From the NCBI RefSeq assembly GCF_988243305.1, contig NZ_OZ547136.1: 64,000 nt of DNA; one strand, written 5' to 3'. A model generated the notes under the pieces. That model did no database searches and had not been told where the DNA came from. It was given only the letters and a program-made list of their open reading frames with translations. Both the position numbers and the translations under genes were made by a program. Positions 53,756 to 64,000 of the stretch are shown here, in pieces (the first letter of the stretch is position 1; every line of letters begins with the position of its first letter).

Positions 53756-54361
53756 TCAGGATCTGATAATATCGTTCTGTCTCAACAGATCTAATAATTG
53801 CTGTACCAAATTTGTTACTAATTGTTCACCATTGAGATGAATTTCTGCCGATTCAGGCGCTTCGTAAACGGAATCTATTCCCGTAAAGTTGCGCAGTTCA
53901 CCGGCACGCGCTTTCTTATATAAGCCTTTTGGATCGCGGGCTTCGCAAATCGCCAGCGGCGTATCGACAAATACTTCGATAAAGCGCCCTTCTCCTACGC
54001 GTTCACGAACCATCTGGCGTTCGGCGCGGTGTGGCGAGATGAATGCGGTCAGCACCACCAGTCCGGCTTCAACCATCAAATTCGCCACTTCACCGACGCG
54101 ACGGATATTCTCTTTACGATCGGCATCGCTAAAACCGAGATCGCTGCATAATCCGTGGCGAACATTGTCGCCATCCAGCAGATACGTACTGACGCCGAGT
54201 TTATGTAACGCCTCCTCCAGCGCCCCGGCGACCGTTGATTTACCGGACCCGGAGAGGCCGGTAAACCACAGCACTACACCACGATGACCGTGGTGTAGCT
54301 CGCGTTGTTGTACAGTGACTGGATGGCTATGCCAGACGACGTTTTCGTCATGCAGCGCCAT
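53756..54361 (-). CDS. cysC: Adenylyl-sulfate kinase
   Basis: 201 aa with P-loop GLSGSGKST. Confidence 0.96.
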
Positions 54362-55788
54362 TATTTATCCCCCAGCAAATCGCGTGCGCCCCAGTGCGGA
54401 AAGTGGCGACGAACCAGGGCATTCAATTCCAGTTCAAATGCACTGAATTCAGATGGCGCAGCAGTTGCCTGGCTAACTGGCTCGTGCACCATACCGGCAC
54501 CCACGGTCACATTGCTCAGGCGATCGATAAAAATCAGCCCACCGGTAACCGGATTTTGCTGATAACGATCTAACACCAGTGGCTCGTCAAAAGTGAGATC
54601 CACCAGGCCGATGCCGTTCAGCGGCAGGTTTTCAACTTCGCGTTGGGTAAGGTTATTAATATCAACCTGATAACGAATACCATCAACACGAGCACGCGTC
54701 TTCTTACCGGCAATTTTGATGTCATAACTCTGGCCCGCGGAAAGCGGCTGTTCCGCCATCCATACCACATCCACCGACGCGCTCTGCACAGCCGGTAACG
54801 CTTCGTCTGCCGCCAGCAGCAGATCGCCACGGCTGATGTCGATCTCATCCGTCAGCACCAGGGTGATCGCTTCTCCGGCAAAGGCTTCTTCGCGATCGCC
54901 ATCAAAAGTCACGATCCGCGCGACGTTTGATTCCACACCAGAGGGCAGCACTTTGACACGTTGCCCGACTTCCACTCGACCGGATGCCAGCGTTCCGGCG
55001 TAGCCACGAAAATCGAGATTCGGGCGATTAACGTACTGCACCGGGAAGCGCATTGGCTGGGCATCCACCACTCGCTGGATCTCCACGGTTTCCAGCACTT
55101 CGAGCAGTGTCGGACCGCTGTACCACGGCATACTTTCACTTTGCGAAGCCACGTTGTCACCTTCCAGTGCGGAGAGCGGCACAAAGCGGATATCCAGATT
55201 ACCCGGCAGCTGCCCGGCAAAGGTCAGATAATCTTCACGAATACGGGTGAACGTCTCTTCACTGTAATCCACCAGATCCATTTTGTTGATCGCCACGACC
55301 AGATGTTTGATCCCCAACAGTGTGGAGATAAAACTGTGACGACGGGTTTGATCGAGCACGCCTTTACGGGCATCGATCAGTAAGATCGCCAGTTCACATG
55401 TCGATGCGCCAGTCGCCATATTGCGAGTGTACTGCTCGTGCCCTGGGGTATCGGCGATAATAAATTTACGCTTCTCGGTAGAGAAATAACGGTAAGCCAC
55501 GTCAATGGTGATGCCCTGTTCGCGCTCAGCTTGCAGGCCGTCCACCAGCAGTGCCAGATCCAGTTTTTCGCCCTGGGTGCCGTGACGTTTACTGTCGTTA
55601 TGCAGCGATGAGAGCTGATCTTCGTAGATTTGGCGGGTATCGTGCAGCAGGCGACCAATCAGGGTACTTTTGCCGTCATCGACGCTACCACAGGTCAGAA
55701 AACGCAGCAGGCTTTTATGTTGTTGCGCAATCATCCAGGCTTCGACGCCGCCTTCATTGGCGATTTGTTGTGCAAGTGCGGTGTTCAT
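54361..55788 (-). CDS. cysN: Sulfate adenylyltransferase subunit 1 (GTPase)
   Basis: 475 aa with GTPase motifs GSVDDGKST and DTPGH. Confidence 0.96.
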
Positions 55789-55789
55789 C

Positions 55790-56698
55790 TTAAAAATACC
55801 CCTGACGTTTTTTCAACTCCATGGATCCCGCCTGGTCGCGGTCAATCACGCGACCCTGACGTTCACTGGTGGTGGAAACCAGCATCTCTTCGATGATTTC
55901 CGGCAGTGTTTGTGCATTTGACTCCACCGCACCGGTCAGCGGCCAGCAGCCCAGCGTACGGAAACGCACCATCCGTTTTTTAATCACTTCTCCCGGTTGC
56001 AGGTCGATACGGTTGTCATCAATCATCATCAACATACCGTCGCGTTCCAGAACCGGTCGTTCCGCAGCGAGATACAGTGGAACAATGTCAATATTTTCCA
56101 GCCAGATGTATTGCCAGATATCCTGCTCGGTCCAGTTAGAGAGCGGGAAGACGCGGATGCTTTCGCCTTTGTTAATTTGCCCGTTGTAGTTGTGCCACAG
56201 CTCCGGGCGCTGATTTTTCGGATCCCAGCGATGGAAGCGGTCACGGAAAGAGTAGATTCGCTCTTTAGCGCGGGATTTCTCTTCGTCGCGGCGCGCACCA
56301 CCGAAGGCGGCATCAAAACCGTATTTATTCAGCGCCTGTTTCAGGCCTTCAGTTTTCATAATATCGGTATGTTTCGCGCTGCCATGAACGAATGGATTAA
56401 TCCCCATCGCCACGCCTTCCGGGTTTTTATGCACCAGCAGCTCGCAGCCGTAGGCTTTAGCCGTACGATCGCGGAACTCATACATCTCGCGGAATTTCCA
56501 GCCGGTATCGACATGCAGCAACGGGAAAGGCAGCGTACCTGGATAAAACGCCTTGCGCGCCAGATGCAGCATGACGCTGGAATCTTTACCGATAGAGTAG
56601 AGCATCACCGGATTTGAGAATTCTGCCGCCACCTCGCGAATAATGTGGATGCTTTCCGCCTCCAGTTGCCGCAGGTGAGTAAGTCGTTTTTGATCCAT
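55790..56698 (-). CDS. cysD: Sulfate adenylyltransferase subunit 2
   Basis: 302 aa PAPS-reductase-like fold, recognised as CysD. Confidence 0.96.
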
Positions 56699-56949
56699 AA
56701 CCGTTCCTTTGCAATACCGCTATTTTCTTGCCATCAGATGTTTCGACTATAGGGAGCGTAAGAGAACGAATGAAATTACCAATTAGAATGAGTAGTTCCT
56801 TAACGGAATAACGATTTGGCAAAGCTAATATCAAAAAGTGCTTAAGGCACCGGATTTCGGGCGTTTAGGAAGATTTGAAATTGTTTTAGCGCAGCGGCAG
56901 TTTCATACTATGGCGGTAAAAAAATTTGCATGGTATTTAAGGACTCACT

Positions 56950-57987
56950 ATGTTTTCCGCATTGCGCCACCGTACCGCTGCCCTGGCGCTCGGCGTATGC
57001 TTTATTCTCCCCGTACACGCCTCGTCACCTAAACCTGGCGATTTTGCTAATACCCAGGCACGACATATTGCTACTTTCTTTCCGGGACGCATGACCGGAA
57101 CTCCTGCAGAAATGTTATCTGCCGATTATATTCGCCAGCAGTTTCAGCAAATGGGTTATCGCAGTGATATTCGGACATTTAATAGTCGGTATATTTATAC
57201 CGCCCGCGATAATCGCAAGAGCTGGCATAACGTGACGGGAAGTACGGTGATTGCCGCTCATGAAGGCAAAGCGCCGCAGCAGATCATCATTATGGCGCAT
57301 CTGGATACTTACGCCCCGCTGAGCGATGCTGACGCCGATGCCAATCTCGGCGGGCTGACGTTACAAGGAATGGATGATAACGCCGCAGGTTTAGGTGTCA
57401 TGCTGGAACTGGCAGAACGCCTGAAAAATACGCCTACCGAGTATGGTATTCGATTTGTGGCGACCAGTGGTGAAGAGGAAGGGAAATTAGGTGCTGAGAA
57501 TTTACTCAAGCGGATGAGTGACACCGAAAAGAAAAATACGCTGCTGGTGATTAATCTCGATAACTTAATTGTTGGCGATAAATTGTATTTCAACAGCGGC
57601 GTAAAAACCCCTGAAGCAGTAAGGAAATTAACGCGCGACAGGGCGCTGGCAATTGCGCGTAGTCATGGAATTGCCGCAACGACCAATCCGGGTTTGAATA
57701 AAAATTATCCGAAGGGTACTGGCTGTTGTAATGACGCCGAAGTTTTCGACAAAGCCGGTATTGCCGTACTTTCGGTAGAAGCAACAAATTGGAATCTTGG
57801 GAATAAGGATGGTTATCAGCAACGCGCAAAAACAGCTGCATTCCCTGCGGGAAATAGCTGGCATGACGTAAGACTGGATAATCAACAACATATTGATAAG
57901 GCACTTCCAGGAAGAATAGAACGTCGCTGCCGTGATGTTATGCGGATAATGCTACCGCTGGTGAAGGAGCTGGCGAAGGCGTCTTGA
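56950..57987 (+). CDS. iap: Alkaline phosphatase isozyme conversion aminopeptidase (M28 family)
   Basis: 345 aa with signal peptide, recognised as Iap. Confidence 0.93.
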   Translation: MFSALRHRTAALALGVCFILPVHASSPKPGDFANTQARHIATFFPGRMTGTPAEMLSADYIRQQFQQMGYRSDIRTFNSRYIYTARDNRKSWHNVTGSTVIAAHEGKAPQQIIIMAHLDTYAPLSDADADANLGGLTLQGMDDNAAGLGVMLELAERLKNTPTEYGIRFVATSGEEEGKLGAENLLKRMSDTEKKNTLLVINLDNLIVGDKLYFNSGVKTPEAVRKLTRDRALAIARSHGIAATTNPGLNKNYPKGTGCCNDAEVFDKAGIAVLSVEATNWNLGNKDGYQQRAKTAAFPAGNSWHDVRLDNQQHIDKALPGRIERRCRDVMRIMLPLVKELAKAS

Positions 57988-58007
57988 TGGGTTTGAAAAT
58001 AGGAGCT

Positions 58008-60414
58008 GGGAGTTCTACCGCAGGGGCGGGGAACTCCAAGTGATATCCATCATCGCATCCAGTGCGTCCGGTTTATCCCCGCTGACGCGGGGAACTCCGT
58101 GTGGGAACTACGAGTAGGCCGTTTTCTCTCGGTTTATCCCCGCTGGCGCGGGGAACTCCAATATCCGCGCCGTACCCAGCAAATGCTGACGGTTTATCCC
58201 CGCTGGCGCGGGGAACTCTACCGCATATTCACCAAAGTCCTCTATTTTGTCGGTTTATCCCCGCTGACGCGGGGAACTCGAGCGGACGCTCGACGATAAC
58301 ACCGATTTGCAAGGTTTATCCCCGCTGGCGCGGGGAACTCCAATATCCGCGCCGTACCCAGCAAATGCTGACGGTTTATCCCCGCTGGCGCGGGGAACTC
58401 TACCGCATATTCACCAAAGTCCTCTATTTTGTCGGTTTATCCCCGCTGACGCGGGGAACTCGAGCGGACGCTCGACGATAACACCGATTTGCAAGGTTTA
58501 TCCCCGCTGACGCGGGGAACTCCCGTCAGGCCGCGTCAATCGTTTAGCCCACGGCGGTTTATCCCCGCTGACGCGGGGAACTCACATGGAGTACATCATG
58601 AACAGACCACTGACCCGGTTTATCCCCGCTGACGCGGGGAACTCAGATTTTAGATGAGATGAAGTTGAATAGTTTACGGTTTATCCCCGCTGACGCGGGG
58701 AACTCATAAATCATTCTTTTCTTTCATCACCTACGACCGGTTTATCCCCGCTGACGCGGGAAACTCCTGTAGACGTTCTTTGGTAATGGTTTTCATCACG
58801 GTTTATCCCCGCTGACGCGGGGAACTCAATACTACAAACATCAAATGCGTTATTTACTGCGGTTTATCCCCGCTGACGCGGGGAACTCTAAGCCGTGACG
58901 AGGGTCGCCGCTGGCGTCAACGGTTTATCCCCGCTGACGCGGGGAACTCTTACAGATGTAATAAATCACACATGTAATAGCCGGTTTATCCCCGCTGACG
59001 CGGGGAACTCGATCGGGAGGATTTTAAACGCTGGTCAATGGCCGGTTTATCCCCGCTGACGCGGGGAACTCAATTACCGGGTGTCTAGTGCTCATACGCA
59101 GCCCGGTTTATCCCCGCTGACGCGGGGAACTCAATTACTGGGTGTCTCGTGCTCATATGCAGCCCGGTTTATCCCCGCTGACGCGGGGAACTCTTTCCCC
59201 CATGCGGGAAGCGCGTGCGATTTCGCGGTTTATCCCCGCTGACGCGGGGAACTCTTTTAGGTGTGCTGAGATTATTTGTCGCGGCGCGGTTTATCCCCGC
59301 TGACGCGGGGAACTCTTATCAGCAGCCAGACCAGCATTCGGGGAATACGGTTTATCCCCGCTGACGCGGGGAACTCATGATCAAATCAGTGCCGAGCTGG
59401 TGCAGATGCGGTTTATCCCCGCTGACGCGGGGAACTCAAAACAGGTTTGCCTGTCGCCCTCCGGTCCACCGGTTTATCCCCGCTGACGCGGGGAACTCCA
59501 ATCCGTTTATTACTTTATTTCTGCCGCCTTCGGTTTATCCCCGCTGACGCGGGGAACTCCAACGTTTTGGTAATCAACGGAAGGAGCTTCGCGGTTTATC
59601 CCCGCTGACGCGGGGAACTCAATAAATTCAGGAGCGGTAACGATATATTTAACGGTTTATCCCCGCTGACGCGGGGAACTCGTAAAGGCGTTGCCCTGTT
59701 CCGTCGCTGTTGTCGGTTTATCCCCGCTGACGCGGGGAACTCATCCGTTAATTATTGAGAGAGCTATCAGCTATCGGTTTATCCCCGCTGACGCGGGGAA
59801 CTCACCATCAGTCCTTGAGCCGAGAAAATCGCCGCCGGTTTATCCCCGCTGACGCGGGGAACTCAGCTATATACGGGAGCAAGATTATAATATCTGCGGT
59901 TTATCCCCGCTGACGCGGGGAACTCTTTCGCCCAATCTTGCGCGCTCTGACCTATCTGGGTTTATCCCCGCTGACGCGGGGAACTCGTGGGTGGCTGCCG
60001 TCGCGGCTGGTGCTGCGGCGGTTTATCCCCGCTGACGCGGGGAACTCACTGAGTATTTGCCTCAAGTGATGTACTGGTCCGGTTTATCCCCGCTGACGCG
60101 GGGAACTCAATATCGCCGTCAATGCCAATATTTTTCCGCGCGGTTTATCCCCGCTGACGCGGGGAACTCGTGAAAATAGAGGAAGGGCGCATTATTGGCG
60201 GCGGTTTATCCCCGCTGACGCGGGGAACTCGCGTCAGAAGCGATTGAATCAATAGCGGATCACGGTTTATCCCCGCTGACGCGGGGAACTCGTCCATTTT
60301 CCCCCTGGAGGCTGTAATTCACCGCGGTTTATCCCCGCTGACGCGGGGAACTCTTATTCAGCCAACGCGGCGCGGGGCTTGTTTGCGGTTTATCCCCGCT
60401 GACGCGGGGAACTC
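58008..60414 (-). CRISPR. Type I-E CRISPR array: 39 full 29-nt repeats plus one degenerate terminal repeat, 39 spacers (31-33 nt)
   Basis: Repeat CGGTTTATCCCCGCTG(A/G)CGCGGGGAACTC at about 61-bp period, i.e. GAGTTCCCCGCG(T/C)CAGCGGGGATAAACCG on the transcribed strand. The degenerate repeat is at the iap end and the AT-rich leader at the cas2 end. Confidence 0.97.
58130..58493 (-). repeat. Tandem duplication (2 x 182 bp) of a three-spacer/three-repeat block inside the CRISPR array
   Basis: Spacers CAATATCCGCGCCGTACCCAGCAAATGCTGA, TACCGCATATTCACCAAAGTCCTCTATTTTGT and GAGCGGACGCTCGACGATAACACCGATTTGCA occur twice in the same order, each copy with the same GGC/GGC/GAC repeat variants; ORF-track peptides are duplicated accordingly. 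Confidence 0.95.
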
Positions 60415-60519
60415 TCTAAAAGTATACATTTGTTCTTAAAGCATTTTTTCCCATAAAAACAACCCACCAACCTTAATGTAACATTTCCTTATTATTAAAG
60501 ATCAGCTAATTCTTTGTTT
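60415..60519 (-). promoter_or_regulatory. CRISPR leader (AT-rich) with array promoter
   Basis: AT-rich segment between the last repeat and the cas2 stop; sets array polarity. Confidence 0.8.
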
Positions 60520-61723
<1,204 letters not shown>

Positions 61724-61738
61724 TTTATTACACCTAAA

Positions 61739-62338
61739 TCACAGTGGAGCCAAAGATAGCAAGCCACATCCCATCGATTTAGCTGGCCCAATACCTTGCT
61801 GTACAAGATCTATTAACGCTGGCGCGTCGTTGATGGTGATCACCCCTTCAAAGCAAACCGTTTGAATCTTTCCACTTTTACCATCACCAGAAAAATACTG
61901 TGGCCGTTCCGATATGGGATGCACATCTTCAACGCGCGCCGCATTGCCCAATTTACGTTGCAACCACGCGATTTGTTCTGCTTCTTTTATTAACGGAACC
62001 CGACAGCGTTTAATATTCCCTTTACTATCCAGGCGCTTTTGATTGTCGAGAATAGTTTTGATCGGATTTGCCCGAAGCCGAAAATAGAGTGGAACACCAA
62101 CCTGAAGTTGAAATTCAACCTGTTTAGTTTTAATGACTGTCGCAACAGCAGTTGAAACAGGCATTTGCGCTGACTGCAATAAAACATGACAGCCTTCTGG
62201 TGTGTTTCGCTTCTCAACATGAAAAAGAAAATCACGAGCAGCATCCGGTCTGTTTGGAAATAAATGCCATAATCCCTGGTGAAGTTGGTAAAGATCCCTG
62301 CTCCAGGCCCTGGCAATGATGACTTTACTGAGATACAT
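61739..62338 (-). CDS. cas6e: Cas6e (CasE) pre-crRNA endoribonuclease
   Basis: 199 aa recognised as CasE. Confidence 0.95.
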   Translation of the reverse strand: MYLSKVIIARAWSRDLYQLHQGLWHLFPNRPDAARDFLFHVEKRNTPEGCHVLLQSAQMPVSTAVATVIKTKQVEFQLQVGVPLYFRLRANPIKTILDNQKRLDSKGNIKRCRVPLIKEAEQIAWLQRKLGNAARVEDVHPISERPQYFSGDGKSGKIQTVCFEGVITINDAPALIDLVQQGIGPAKSMGCGLLSLAPL

Positions 62339-62999
62339 CCATACCTCCTTTAATCACATACCATTCTCGGGAAGCAAATTGTCGAGGTAAGGTGATCATC
62401 GGTTCGTCGCGCGCCGTAAATTTTAAATGATGCCCTGTAACTGATTCCTCACTATAAATATCGCCGCCAACGGGCTCATAATTTAATAGCGCCTTCTGAG
62501 GATCCGATGCCTGACATGTCCCCAAAAAAAGCGGGTGTGTTAGTGGGCAACTTCTCCGCCCCAGGTAGGGTGTATACCGAGGCTTTAATACTGCTTTTTC
62601 AAGTTCTGAGATAACCATCGTTGCATGGGGTGTTAACCAGAGAGCGACGGTAAAGGAGGCATCACATAAATATTCGCGCCATGTTTGAATCGTTTCATGA
62701 CTTTTCAAACCACGGTAATCTTCTCGCGCTCCAAGGACTGTATGGTAATCACGCAACCCCGTTACAGACACACGACGATCGTCAAGAATGAGTTCATCGC
62801 AGCGCACTGCAAATTGCACACTCTCTGATAACACCTGTAATGAAGAAGTATCATCACGTTGGATCCCAAGACAAGCCCCGAGTAGCCCTAATAACCCGCT
62901 TCGGGTCGGAAAACTTCCGGTAGGTCGCGTTCCTTCAAAGGTCGGCAGCCCCCAGGCTTGCATTGGCCCAGCAAGCCGCAAGATCAAATAAGATCTCAT
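62325..62999 (-). CDS. cas5: Cas5e (CasD) Cascade subunit
   Basis: Start trimmed to MRSYLILRLAGPMQAWG. Confidence 0.94.
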   Translation of the reverse strand: MRSYLILRLAGPMQAWGLPTFEGTRPTGSFPTRSGLLGLLGACLGIQRDDTSSLQVLSESVQFAVRCDELILDDRRVSVTGLRDYHTVLGAREDYRGLKSHETIQTWREYLCDASFTVALWLTPHATMVISELEKAVLKPRYTPYLGRRSCPLTHPLFLGTCQASDPQKALLNYEPVGGDIYSEESVTGHHLKFTARDEPMITLPRQFASREWYVIKGGMDVSQ

Positions 63000-63001
63000 G
63001 T

Positions 63002-64000
63002 TCATGCCTCGCCATTATTACGAACCCAGGATTTTAACTGTTCTAAAGTAGGCATTTGTTTAACTTGAGCAGTAATTGGGTCTACATCAGATAAGCTGAA
63101 TTGCGCAGCAGCTCCGTTCAGACCATATCCATTGGCAACGCGATCCCAATATTGATTAAACGCCTGTATAGACGGTTGCAAAAAGCCATCTTTCGCTTTA
63201 ACAGCTTTTTCAAAAGCATTTGCCATAGAAAGTGGCATATCGGAGAAATTAACCATTACCATATCCGCAGGGTTAAAAGCGGCATAAGTACGCTGTTTTG
63301 CTCCAGGGACCTCTGTTGCCAGCATATGAACAACATTGGTTGCAATTTCCAGAGCCTGCTCCCTGGAGGCACCACCTAAATTTTCCTGAAGTTGAGCGAG
63401 GTTAATGTTGGCGTAACGATAAAAAACACCCGATGAAAATTCCTGAGTTCCCAGATGTGCAGAACCTTGTTCCTGTAAATCATCTACAGCGGTGAACCAG
63501 TCAATATCTGAATCAACCTGATGAGTAGTGATCGCATGCGCAATGGACATTGCACCATCAACTTTTCCCAACTCACTCATCATGCCGCTGGTTGCCATTC
63601 TTCCGCTAAGCGCAATATCAACACCCTGCTGTAAATTCACACGTATGGCGGCAATATCTTCCTTAAGAACTTTGAGCAGCTTTTTATCATCCAGATTATC
63701 AGCCTCTGCTTTTGCAACCTGCTCACAGAACCAGGCTATTTCTCCCACAACCCAGGGAGTAACCGCATCGGCAGAAATCTTTTCGGCTTCATCAACTAAT
63801 TTACCGGAGAGCAGCGCTAATGTCTTATCGATGATTTTTTGGTCAAAACGTTCACCAAGTTTTTGCCGAAGAACATCACGTAATTGTGCAAGATGAATTG
63901 TTCTGAGACTGGATTCACCAATATTTTGTGCGTAATAATCACTTTTACGCATCGCACGTTTAAGGCTTTGACTTGAAATTCTTACTCGTCTTTTCCCGCC
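63002..64000 (-). CDS. cas7: Cas7e (CasC) Cascade backbone subunit, 5' end beyond the window
   Basis: C-terminal 316+ aa of a CasC-like protein; the frame is open to the window edge. Confidence 0.85.

What the first reader, a model, noticed from the sequence alone, without database searches (positions are those of the whole stretch)
58130..58493. Tandem duplication of a three-spacer block inside the CRISPR array
A 182-bp unit (three repeats and three spacers) occurs twice in direct succession near the leader-distal end, with the same repeat variants (GGC, GGC, GAC) in each copy. Normal adaptation adds single spacers at the leader end, so this indicates recombination or replication slippage between repeats. 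It could also be an assembly artefact in a repetitive region.
Basis: seen in the sequence. Interest (0 to 1): 0.5.

Follow-up and report, generated by a model that had tools for sequence, protein, structure and literature searches.

The report
Tandem three-spacer duplication in CRISPR array
A block of three repeat-spacer units near the old end of an E. coli type I-E CRISPR array has been copied head-to-tail by misalignment between two repeats, which is a real but ordinary and already documented way for CRISPR arrays to change.

Summary
Window 58130-58311 and 58312-58493 are 182-bp head-to-tail copies, identical at 181/182 positions. The perfectly periodic tract is 58131-58509. The array (58008-60414) is the E. 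coli iap-side type I-E array.

E. coli NY1601 carries the single-copy allele: Sa-S1-S2-S3-Sb with repeat variants GAC, GGC, GGC, GAC, A..GAC. Deleting 58312-58493 from the window gives a sequence identical to NY1601 (0 mismatches in 473 bp).

The repeat at the copy boundary (58312-58340) joins the "A" that follows S3 to the "GGC" of the repeat that precedes S1. This places the crossover in the 15 bases 58313-58327.

The most likely cause is replication slippage or unequal exchange between two repeats 182 bp apart. An assembly artefact cannot be excluded without reads. It is unlikely, because the junction 17-mer is unique and absent from the single-copy allele.

Spacer duplications are documented: about 3% of spacers in CRISPRCasdb, about 4.7% in E. 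coli I-E arrays, and Cas1-independent in experiments. Interest is low.

The parts
56950..57987 (+). iap (alkaline phosphatase isozyme conversion aminopeptidase). It marks the leader-distal side of the array.
   Evidence: NCBIfam NF007568, 705 bits. Annotated as iap in homologous E. coli loci.
58008..60414 (-). Whole type I-E CRISPR array: a degenerate terminal repeat (58008-58036) plus 39 good repeats, and 39 spacers. It is transcribed from the leader at the high-coordinate end.
   Evidence: The homologous regions in NY1601 and Z1323HEC0462 are annotated CRISPR.
58069..58129 (-). Repeat R1 (GAC variant) and spacer Sa. This is the unit just outside the duplication on the old side.
   Evidence: Identical in NY1601.
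58130..58311 (-). Copy 1 of the duplicated block: R2(GGC)-S1(31 nt)-R3(GGC)-S2(32 nt)-R4(GAC)-S3(32 nt).
58312..58493 (-). Copy 2 of the duplicated block: R5(A..GGC)-S1-R6(GGC)-S2-R7(GAC)-S3.
   Evidence: Removing this stretch gives the NY1601 sequence exactly.
58312..58340 (-). Junction (hybrid) repeat. Its first base A matches the repeat that follows S3 in the single-copy allele. Its position 17 G matches the repeat that precedes S1.
   Evidence: The 17-mer AGGTTTATCCCCGCTGG is unique in the window.
58313..58327 (.). Crossover interval (GGTTTATCCCCGCTG), 15 bases, bounded by the two polymorphic repeat positions.
   Evidence: Inferred from the limits of the perfect periodic run 58131-58327 / 58313-58509 and the NY1601 repeat variants.
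58494..58554 (-). Repeat R8 (A..GAC) and spacer Sb. This is the unit just outside the duplication on the leader side.
   Evidence: The same A..GAC repeat and Sb follow S3 in NY1601.
60415..60519 (-). AT-rich leader between the newest repeat and cas2e.
   Evidence: Sequence printed. Position is relative to cas2e. Function was not tested.
60520..63952 (-). cas2e (60520-60804), cas1e (60806-61723), cas6e (61739-62338), cas5e (62325-63005), and cas7e (63002-63952; that ORF matches positions 46-325 of the 325-position family model, so its real start may lie further upstream).
   Evidence: NCBIfam TIGR01873, TIGR03638, TIGR01907, TIGR01868 and TIGR01869, all far above their cut-offs.

Best explanation
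This is a genuine tandem duplication of three repeat-spacer units. It arose by misalignment between two CRISPR repeats 182 bp apart: the repeat before S1 and the repeat after S3. Most likely this was RecA-independent replication slippage (template switching within one fork). Less likely it was unequal homologous exchange between sister chromosomes. The nascent strand, or the exchange, switched register inside the 15-base tract GGTTTATCCCCGCTG. The repeat after the first S3 therefore carries the GGC signature of the repeat that normally precedes S1, and the block S1-S2-S3 was copied a second time. The result is an array encoding two copies each of three old crRNAs. All repeat variants involved keep the Cas6e hairpin, so both copies should be processed. 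The effect is probably neutral. The two 197-bp perfect direct repeats make the structure prone to collapse back to one copy, so it is probably recent. Shown: the duplication, the single-copy allele in a relative, the hybrid junction, and the position far from the leader. Inferred: slippage rather than RecA-mediated exchange, neutrality, and recency.
For: The copies match at 181/182 positions and the periodic run is a perfect 197 bp. NY1601 has Sa-S1-S2-S3-Sb once, with repeat variants GAC, GGC, GGC, GAC, A..GAC. The window minus 58312-58493 equals NY1601 over 473 bp with 0 mismatches. The junction repeat combines A at position 1 with G at position 17, and this 17-mer occurs nowhere else in the window or in the NY1601 locus. 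The block has 31 younger spacers between it and the leader, so leader-end adaptation did not make it. The first base of each repeat travels with the preceding spacer: spacer 59926-59957 has protospacer flank G in a prophage, and the following repeat starts with G. The same lineage shows other repeat-mediated changes. NY1601 lacks window spacers 9-16 and 19-20 and has one spacer that the window lacks. Z1323HEC0462 has the spacers in a different order. All four repeat variants fold into the same 7-bp stem with a tetraloop at -15.1 kcal/mol, and the G/A polymorphism lies in the loop. In the literature, duplications are about 3% of spacers and 86% of complex events in CRISPRCasdb, and are attributed to replication misalignment (PMC11472070). 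Replicated spacers are 4.6-4.7% of unique spacers in the two large E. coli array sets, CRISPR1.1 and CRISPR1.2 (PMC4524480). Repeat-spacer duplications occur in cas1 and cas2 deletion strains of S. thermophilus (PMC8860593).
Against: No reads are available, so the duplication rests on one assembled sequence. No second public sequence with the duplication was found. Among 5,426 complete E. coli genomes, only NY1601 shares these spacers, and it has one copy. An exact scan for spacer S3 found nothing in the metagenome contigs or in the species-representative genome collection. Slippage and RecA-dependent exchange leave the same footprint and cannot be told apart from sequence. The preference for slippage rests on general knowledge: the longest uninterrupted identity between the two parental repeats is 15 bp, below the roughly 23-27 bp usually needed for efficient RecA-mediated exchange in E. 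coli, and the repeats are close together.
Confidence: 0.85

Rival explanations
1. Assembly artefact: the real genome has one copy of the block, and the assembler traversed a loop in the repeat graph twice.
For: CRISPR arrays are repetitive and hard to assemble. No independent sequence with the duplication was found.
Against: The S3-to-S1 junction needs the 17-mer AGGTTTATCCCCGCTGG. This 17-mer is absent from the single-copy allele of NY1601 and occurs only at the junction in the window. A single-copy genome therefore has no k-mer of 18 or more, and no read, that links S3 to a GGC repeat. Assemblers also tend to collapse tandem repeats rather than expand them (general knowledge).
Confidence: 0.07
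2. Unequal recombination with incoming homologous DNA (an array fragment transferred from a related strain) produced the duplication, rather than an event within one chromosome.
For: Related arrays differ by several deletions, and Z1323HEC0462 has an order inversion. Spacer 59194-59225 also occurs in the other I-E array of 136 genomes, which hints at exchange between arrays. Kupczok et al. do not exclude recombination as a cause of order inversions.
Against: Both copies are identical to each other and to the NY1601 block, so nothing marks one copy as foreign. Published analyses find recombination between arrays rarer than simple duplication.
Confidence: 0.06
3. Cas1-Cas2-dependent events: the same three spacers were acquired again, or a repeat-spacer block was excised and re-integrated at an internal repeat.
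For: The locus encodes intact-looking Cas1e and Cas2e.
Against: Adaptation adds one spacer at the leader-proximal repeat and copies that repeat, which is GAC here. The second copy sits 31 spacers from the leader. It keeps the same order, the same 31-nt spacer length, and the GGC, GGC, GAC repeat variants. Duplications arise without cas1 or cas2 in experiments.
Confidence: 0.02

Closest known systems
Spacer or repeat-spacer duplications in CRISPR arrays, as catalogued by SpacerPlacer (PMC11472070) and by Kupczok et al. 2015 (PMC4524480)
   Same: It is an internal, non-polarised repetition of existing spacers in the same orientation, bounded by repeats, and attributed to repeat misalignment. It occurs in the same species and the same type of array as part of their data.
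   Different: Nothing differs in kind. Here two repeat polymorphisms happen to map the crossover to 15 bases, and a public genome supplies the exact single-copy allele.
Blockwise spacer deletions by replication slippage between repeats
   Same: Same substrate (two nearby repeats) and same proposed misalignment. The block length of 3 units is close to the reported mean deletion block of about 2.7 units.
   Different: The outcome is the reverse: a gain of the block rather than its loss.
Adaptation-independent repeat-spacer duplications seen experimentally in S. thermophilus type II-A and III-A arrays (PMC8860593)
   Same: Duplicated units keep their orientation and need no new protospacer.
   Different: [quoted passage not shown] This one is leader-distal, in a natural type I-E array.

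Membership tests
E. coli type I-E CRISPR array (iap side) | 29-nt partly palindromic repeat CGGTTTATCCCCGCTG(G/A)CGCGGGGAACTC spaced by spacers of about 32 nt | tested here: met
   There are 39 repeats with at most 2 mismatches, and spacers of 31-33 nt. The hairpin fold is kept in all variants. Rfam gave no hit at gathering score, which does not decide the question for repeats this short.
E. coli type I-E CRISPR array (iap side) | Adjacent type I-E cas operon, with cas2e-cas1e next to the leader | tested here: met
   NCBIfam matches to Cas2e, Cas1e, Cas6e, Cas5e and Cas7e are far above their cut-offs. Gene order is the same as in the annotated E. coli loci.
E. coli type I-E CRISPR array (iap side) | Spacers oriented with the PAM-proximal end toward the leader, and PAM CTT (in this orientation) | tested here: met
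   Spacer 59133-59164 matches a prophage gene in strain 40EC exactly, followed by CTT. The rule is taken from PMC3737337. Only this one spacer was shown with a canonical PAM.
Repeat-mediated tandem duplication (misalignment or unequal exchange) | Head-to-tail copies with nothing between them, and end points inside pre-existing direct repeats | tested here: met
   Period 182, with a perfect run 58131-58327 = 58313-58509. The boundaries fall at repeat positions 1 and 17.
Repeat-mediated tandem duplication (misalignment or unequal exchange) | A hybrid junction repeat that combines markers of the two parental repeats | tested here: met
   R5 is A..GGC. The parental repeats are C..GGC and A..GAC in NY1601.
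Repeat-mediated tandem duplication (misalignment or unequal exchange) | A single-copy allele exists in relatives | tested here: met
   NY1601 has one copy. The window minus one copy is identical to it.
Repeat-mediated tandem duplication (misalignment or unequal exchange) | The duplication is physically present in the DNA (read-level or PCR support) | not testable with these tools
   No reads are available. There is only the indirect k-mer argument.
Repeat-mediated tandem duplication (misalignment or unequal exchange) | RecA independence, which would separate slippage from homologous exchange | not testable with these tools
   This needs genetics. The preference for slippage rests on the 15-bp maximum uninterrupted identity and the 182-bp spacing.
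Cas1-Cas2 adaptation event | A single new spacer inserted at the leader-proximal repeat, with that repeat duplicated | tested here: not met
   Three spacers are involved, in the original order, 31 spacers from the leader. They carry GGC repeat variants, not the leader-proximal GAC variant.

The most novel reading that the evidence does not exclude
The duplication is not neutral. Either it was kept because doubling three old crRNAs raises their share of Cascade loading against a recurring invader, or it is one sign that this lineage's arrays are unusually prone to recombination. The second reading would also cover copying of single spacers between the two I-E arrays of one genome (spacer 59194-59225) and the order inversion in Z1323HEC0462.
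Probability: 0.05. Interest if true: 0.4.

Novelty: already known. Interest (0 to 1): 0.12.

Why it matters
It matters little beyond bookkeeping. It is a clean natural example in which the ancestral allele and the crossover interval of a CRISPR block duplication can both be read directly. It illustrates that gain and loss of spacer blocks are two outcomes of the same repeat misalignment. In practice, duplications like this break the assumption that spacer order equals acquisition order. That assumption underlies CRISPR-based strain typing and array phylogenies, so such blocks should be masked. They are also a warning spot for assembly checks.

Tried and rejected
1. I looked for a second sequence carrying the duplication. 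A megablast of the region, and of the concatenated spacers, against 5,426 complete E. coli genomes found only NY1601 sharing S1-S3, and it has one copy.

2. Exact scans for spacer S3 in metagenome contigs and in the species-representative genome collection found nothing.

3. I used spurious ORFs that run across the duplication as handles. Four exact look-ups found no record. A homology search returned only repeat-derived peptides from other arrays, at 61% identity or less. This was uninformative.

4. Protospacers for S1, S2 and S3 were not found in the phage or plasmid collections at E of 0.1 or less. What these three spacers target is unknown.

5. Rfam gave no family hit on the array at gathering score.

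6. From I first read spacer 59194-59225 as present in about 5,100 genomes. A dedicated search showed 136. I take most of the other matching genomes to reflect the bcsE match of another spacer, but I did not check that in this collection.

7. I rejected re-acquisition by adaptation because of position, order and repeat variants.

8. I rejected the idea that the adjacent near-identical spacers at 59072-59164 are an older duplication. One of them matches a prophage gene exactly with a CTT PAM, and three substitutions between the pair do not fit the perfectly conserved surroundings.

Full report
**What is there**

The region is the Escherichia coli type I-E CRISPR array that lies beside iap. The flank 54300-58000 (cysC-cysN-cysD-iap) matches E. 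coli chromosomes at up to 99.5% identity. iap is at 56950-57987 on the plus strand.

The array starts with a degenerate terminal repeat (58008-58036) and an oldest spacer (58037-58068). After that come 39 well-formed 29-nt repeats from 58069 to 60414.

Cas2e, Cas1e, Cas6e, Cas5e and Cas7e are encoded on the minus strand from 60520 upward. All score far above their NCBIfam cut-offs. The AT-rich leader is therefore 60415-60519, the array is read on the minus strand, and the iap end is the old end.

An independent check of orientation agrees. Spacer 59133-59164 matches a prophage gene of strain 40EC exactly, and the match is followed by CTT on the leader-facing side. That is the acquisition motif and orientation reported for K-12-type I-E systems (PMC3737337).

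**Check of the observation**

- Units 2-4 (58130-58311) have repeats GGC, GGC, GAC and spacers of 31, 32 and 32 nt. They recur immediately as units 5-7 (58312-58493).
- The two 182-bp copies differ only at their first base, C versus A.
- Sliding the sequence by 182 bases gives one perfect run of 197 bases, 58131-58327 = 58313-58509.
- Tandem Repeats Finder reports the same period.
- No other spacer in the array is repeated: 35 of 38 are unique.

**The ancestral allele**

I searched the concatenated spacers against 5,426 complete E. coli genomes. Exactly one genome, strain NY1601, shares the old spacers.

Its array reads: terminal repeat, oldest spacer, R(GAC) Sa, R(GGC) S1, R(GGC) S2, R(GAC) S3, R(A..GAC) Sb. 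The same spacers and the same repeat polymorphisms are present, but the block occurs once. Deleting 58312-58493 from the window gives a sequence with 0 mismatches to NY1601 over 473 bp.

Polarised acquisition produces single copies. The single-copy state is therefore ancestral and the window carries the derived state.

**The junction**

Two natural markers distinguish the repeats involved.

- Position 17 of the repeat is G in the repeat before S1 and A in the repeat after S3.
- Position 1 is C before S1 and A after S3.

Position 1 is by origin the last base of the preceding spacer. This is established for type I-E and was seen again here: spacer 59926-59957 has a protospacer followed by G in a prophage of strain JNE151685, and the repeat after that spacer starts with G.

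In the window, the repeat between the two copies (58312-58340) is A..GGC. The repeat after the second copy (58494-58522) is A..GAC. The switch of register therefore happened between positions 2 and 16 of the repeat, at 58313-58327. This is the longest uninterrupted identity (15 bases) between the two parental repeats. An exchange or template switch inside the repeats would leave exactly this footprint.

**Mechanism**

The likeliest cause is replication misalignment. A nascent strand that had copied the block as far as the repeat at its end re-paired with the repeat at its start, 182 bp away, and copied the block again. Unequal exchange between sister chromosomes would give the same product.

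I prefer the RecA-independent route for two reasons: the uninterrupted identity is only 15 bases, and the repeats are very close together. This preference rests on general knowledge of misalignment mutagenesis (Lovett 2004, cited in PMC11472070). It was not tested here.

Cas1-Cas2 adaptation is excluded as the cause. The second copy lies 31 spacers from the leader. It keeps the order and the 31-nt spacer length. It carries GGC repeats rather than the leader-proximal GAC type. Duplications of repeat-spacer units also occur in cas1 and cas2 deletion mutants (PMC8860593).

**Consequences**

All four repeat variants involved fold into the same 7-bp stem and tetraloop, and the G/A polymorphism falls in the loop. 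Both copies should therefore be processed, giving two gene copies for each of three old crRNAs. No target for S1-S3 was found in the phage or plasmid collections.

The effect is probably neutral. The 197-bp perfect direct repeats are a much better substrate for deletion than 29-nt repeats. The duplication is therefore expected to be unstable and is probably recent. This is an inference, and SpacerPlacer's authors make the same argument.

**Artefact or real**

Without reads this cannot be settled. The junction does argue for reality. The 17-mer AGGTTTATCCCCGCTGG occurs only at the junction in the 64-kb window and is absent from the NY1601 locus. A genome with one copy would supply no k-mer of 18 or more, and no read, that joins S3 to a GGC repeat.

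Searches for a second, independent sequence with the duplication all failed. The event is therefore not shown to be fixed in any lineage.

**Context in the same lineage**

- NY1601 lacks window spacers 9-16 and 19-20, and has one spacer between Sb and spacer 17 that the window lacks. Both lineages have therefore lost internal blocks.
- Strain Z1323HEC0462 carries window spacers in the order 26, 27, 14, 16, one other, 30. This is an order inversion. A larger, older duplication followed by deletions would produce it, as would recombination between strains.

**Comparison with what is known**

- Duplicated spacers make up about 3% of spacers in CRISPRCasdb, and simple duplications are 86% of all non-polarised events. 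The events are attributed to replication misalignment (PMC11472070).
- In the two large E. coli array data sets, CRISPR1.1 and CRISPR1.2, replicated spacers are 4.6-4.7% of unique spacers, and duplication is named the commonest cause of order inversions (PMC4524480).
- The block size of three units is close to the mean block length of about 2.7 units inferred for deletions.

This finding is a clear instance of a known process and not a new kind of element.

**Verdict**

Novelty is "already known" and interest is low (0.12). What this analysis adds is the exact single-copy allele in a public genome and a crossover interval mapped to 15 bases.

Noticed in passing
window 59194-59225: This mid-array spacer (TTTCCCCCATGCGGGAAGCGCGTGCGATTTCG) is identical to the second-oldest spacer of the other I-E array (between ygcE and queE) in strain 118UI. 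It occurs in 136 of 5,426 complete E. coli genomes. NY1601 lacks it in its iap array. Either a unit was copied between the two arrays or both arrays acquired the same protospacer; this is unresolved.
   Followed up: partly
window 59377-59408: This spacer matches the chromosomal cellulose-synthesis gene bcsE of E. coli at 32/32 bases, so it matches the host's own genome. The flank is CGC rather than CTT or CAT, so interference is probably not licensed. Whether the source strain's own bcsE matches could not be checked.
   Followed up: partly
window 59072-59103 and 59133-59164: Two neighbouring spacers differ at only 3 of 32 positions, and the same pair is present in NY1601. The second spacer matches a prophage tail-region gene in strain 40EC exactly, with a CTT PAM. 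The pair therefore looks like two acquisitions from variant phages rather than a diverged duplication.
   Followed up: partly
window 59926-59986: Spacer 59926-59957 matches a prophage gene in E. coli JNE151685 exactly. The protospacer flank is GTT, and the following repeat begins with G instead of C (59958). This shows that the first base of the repeat is carried in with the spacer. The A at 58312 and 58494 after S3 has the same origin.
   Followed up: yes
L002 2972-3366 (E. coli Z1323HEC0462 iap array): This related array carries window spacers in the order 26, 27, 14, 16, one unshared spacer, 30. That is an order inversion relative to the window. It fits an older, larger tandem duplication followed by deletions, or recombination between strains.
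   Followed up: partly
window 58069-58340: The repeat variants do not change steadily with age. From the old end they run GAC, GGC, GGC, GAC, and after the duplicated block all are GAC. The same pattern is present in NY1601. Simple copying of the leader-proximal repeat does not explain it, and older recombination may be involved.
   Followed up: no
window 58738-58766, 58159-58189, 60292-60324: There are minor irregularities. One repeat has a G-to-A change in the stem (GGGAAACTC). One spacer is 31 nt (S1, the one that is duplicated) and one is 33 nt.
   Followed up: no
window 58584-58615: This spacer matches a set of Salmonella plasmids of about 124 kb at 28/29 bases, plus a 215-kb Salmonella plasmid and an 85-kb Hafnia alvei plasmid more weakly. 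All matches fall in hypothetical genes. This is a likely plasmid or phage-plasmid target.
   Followed up: no
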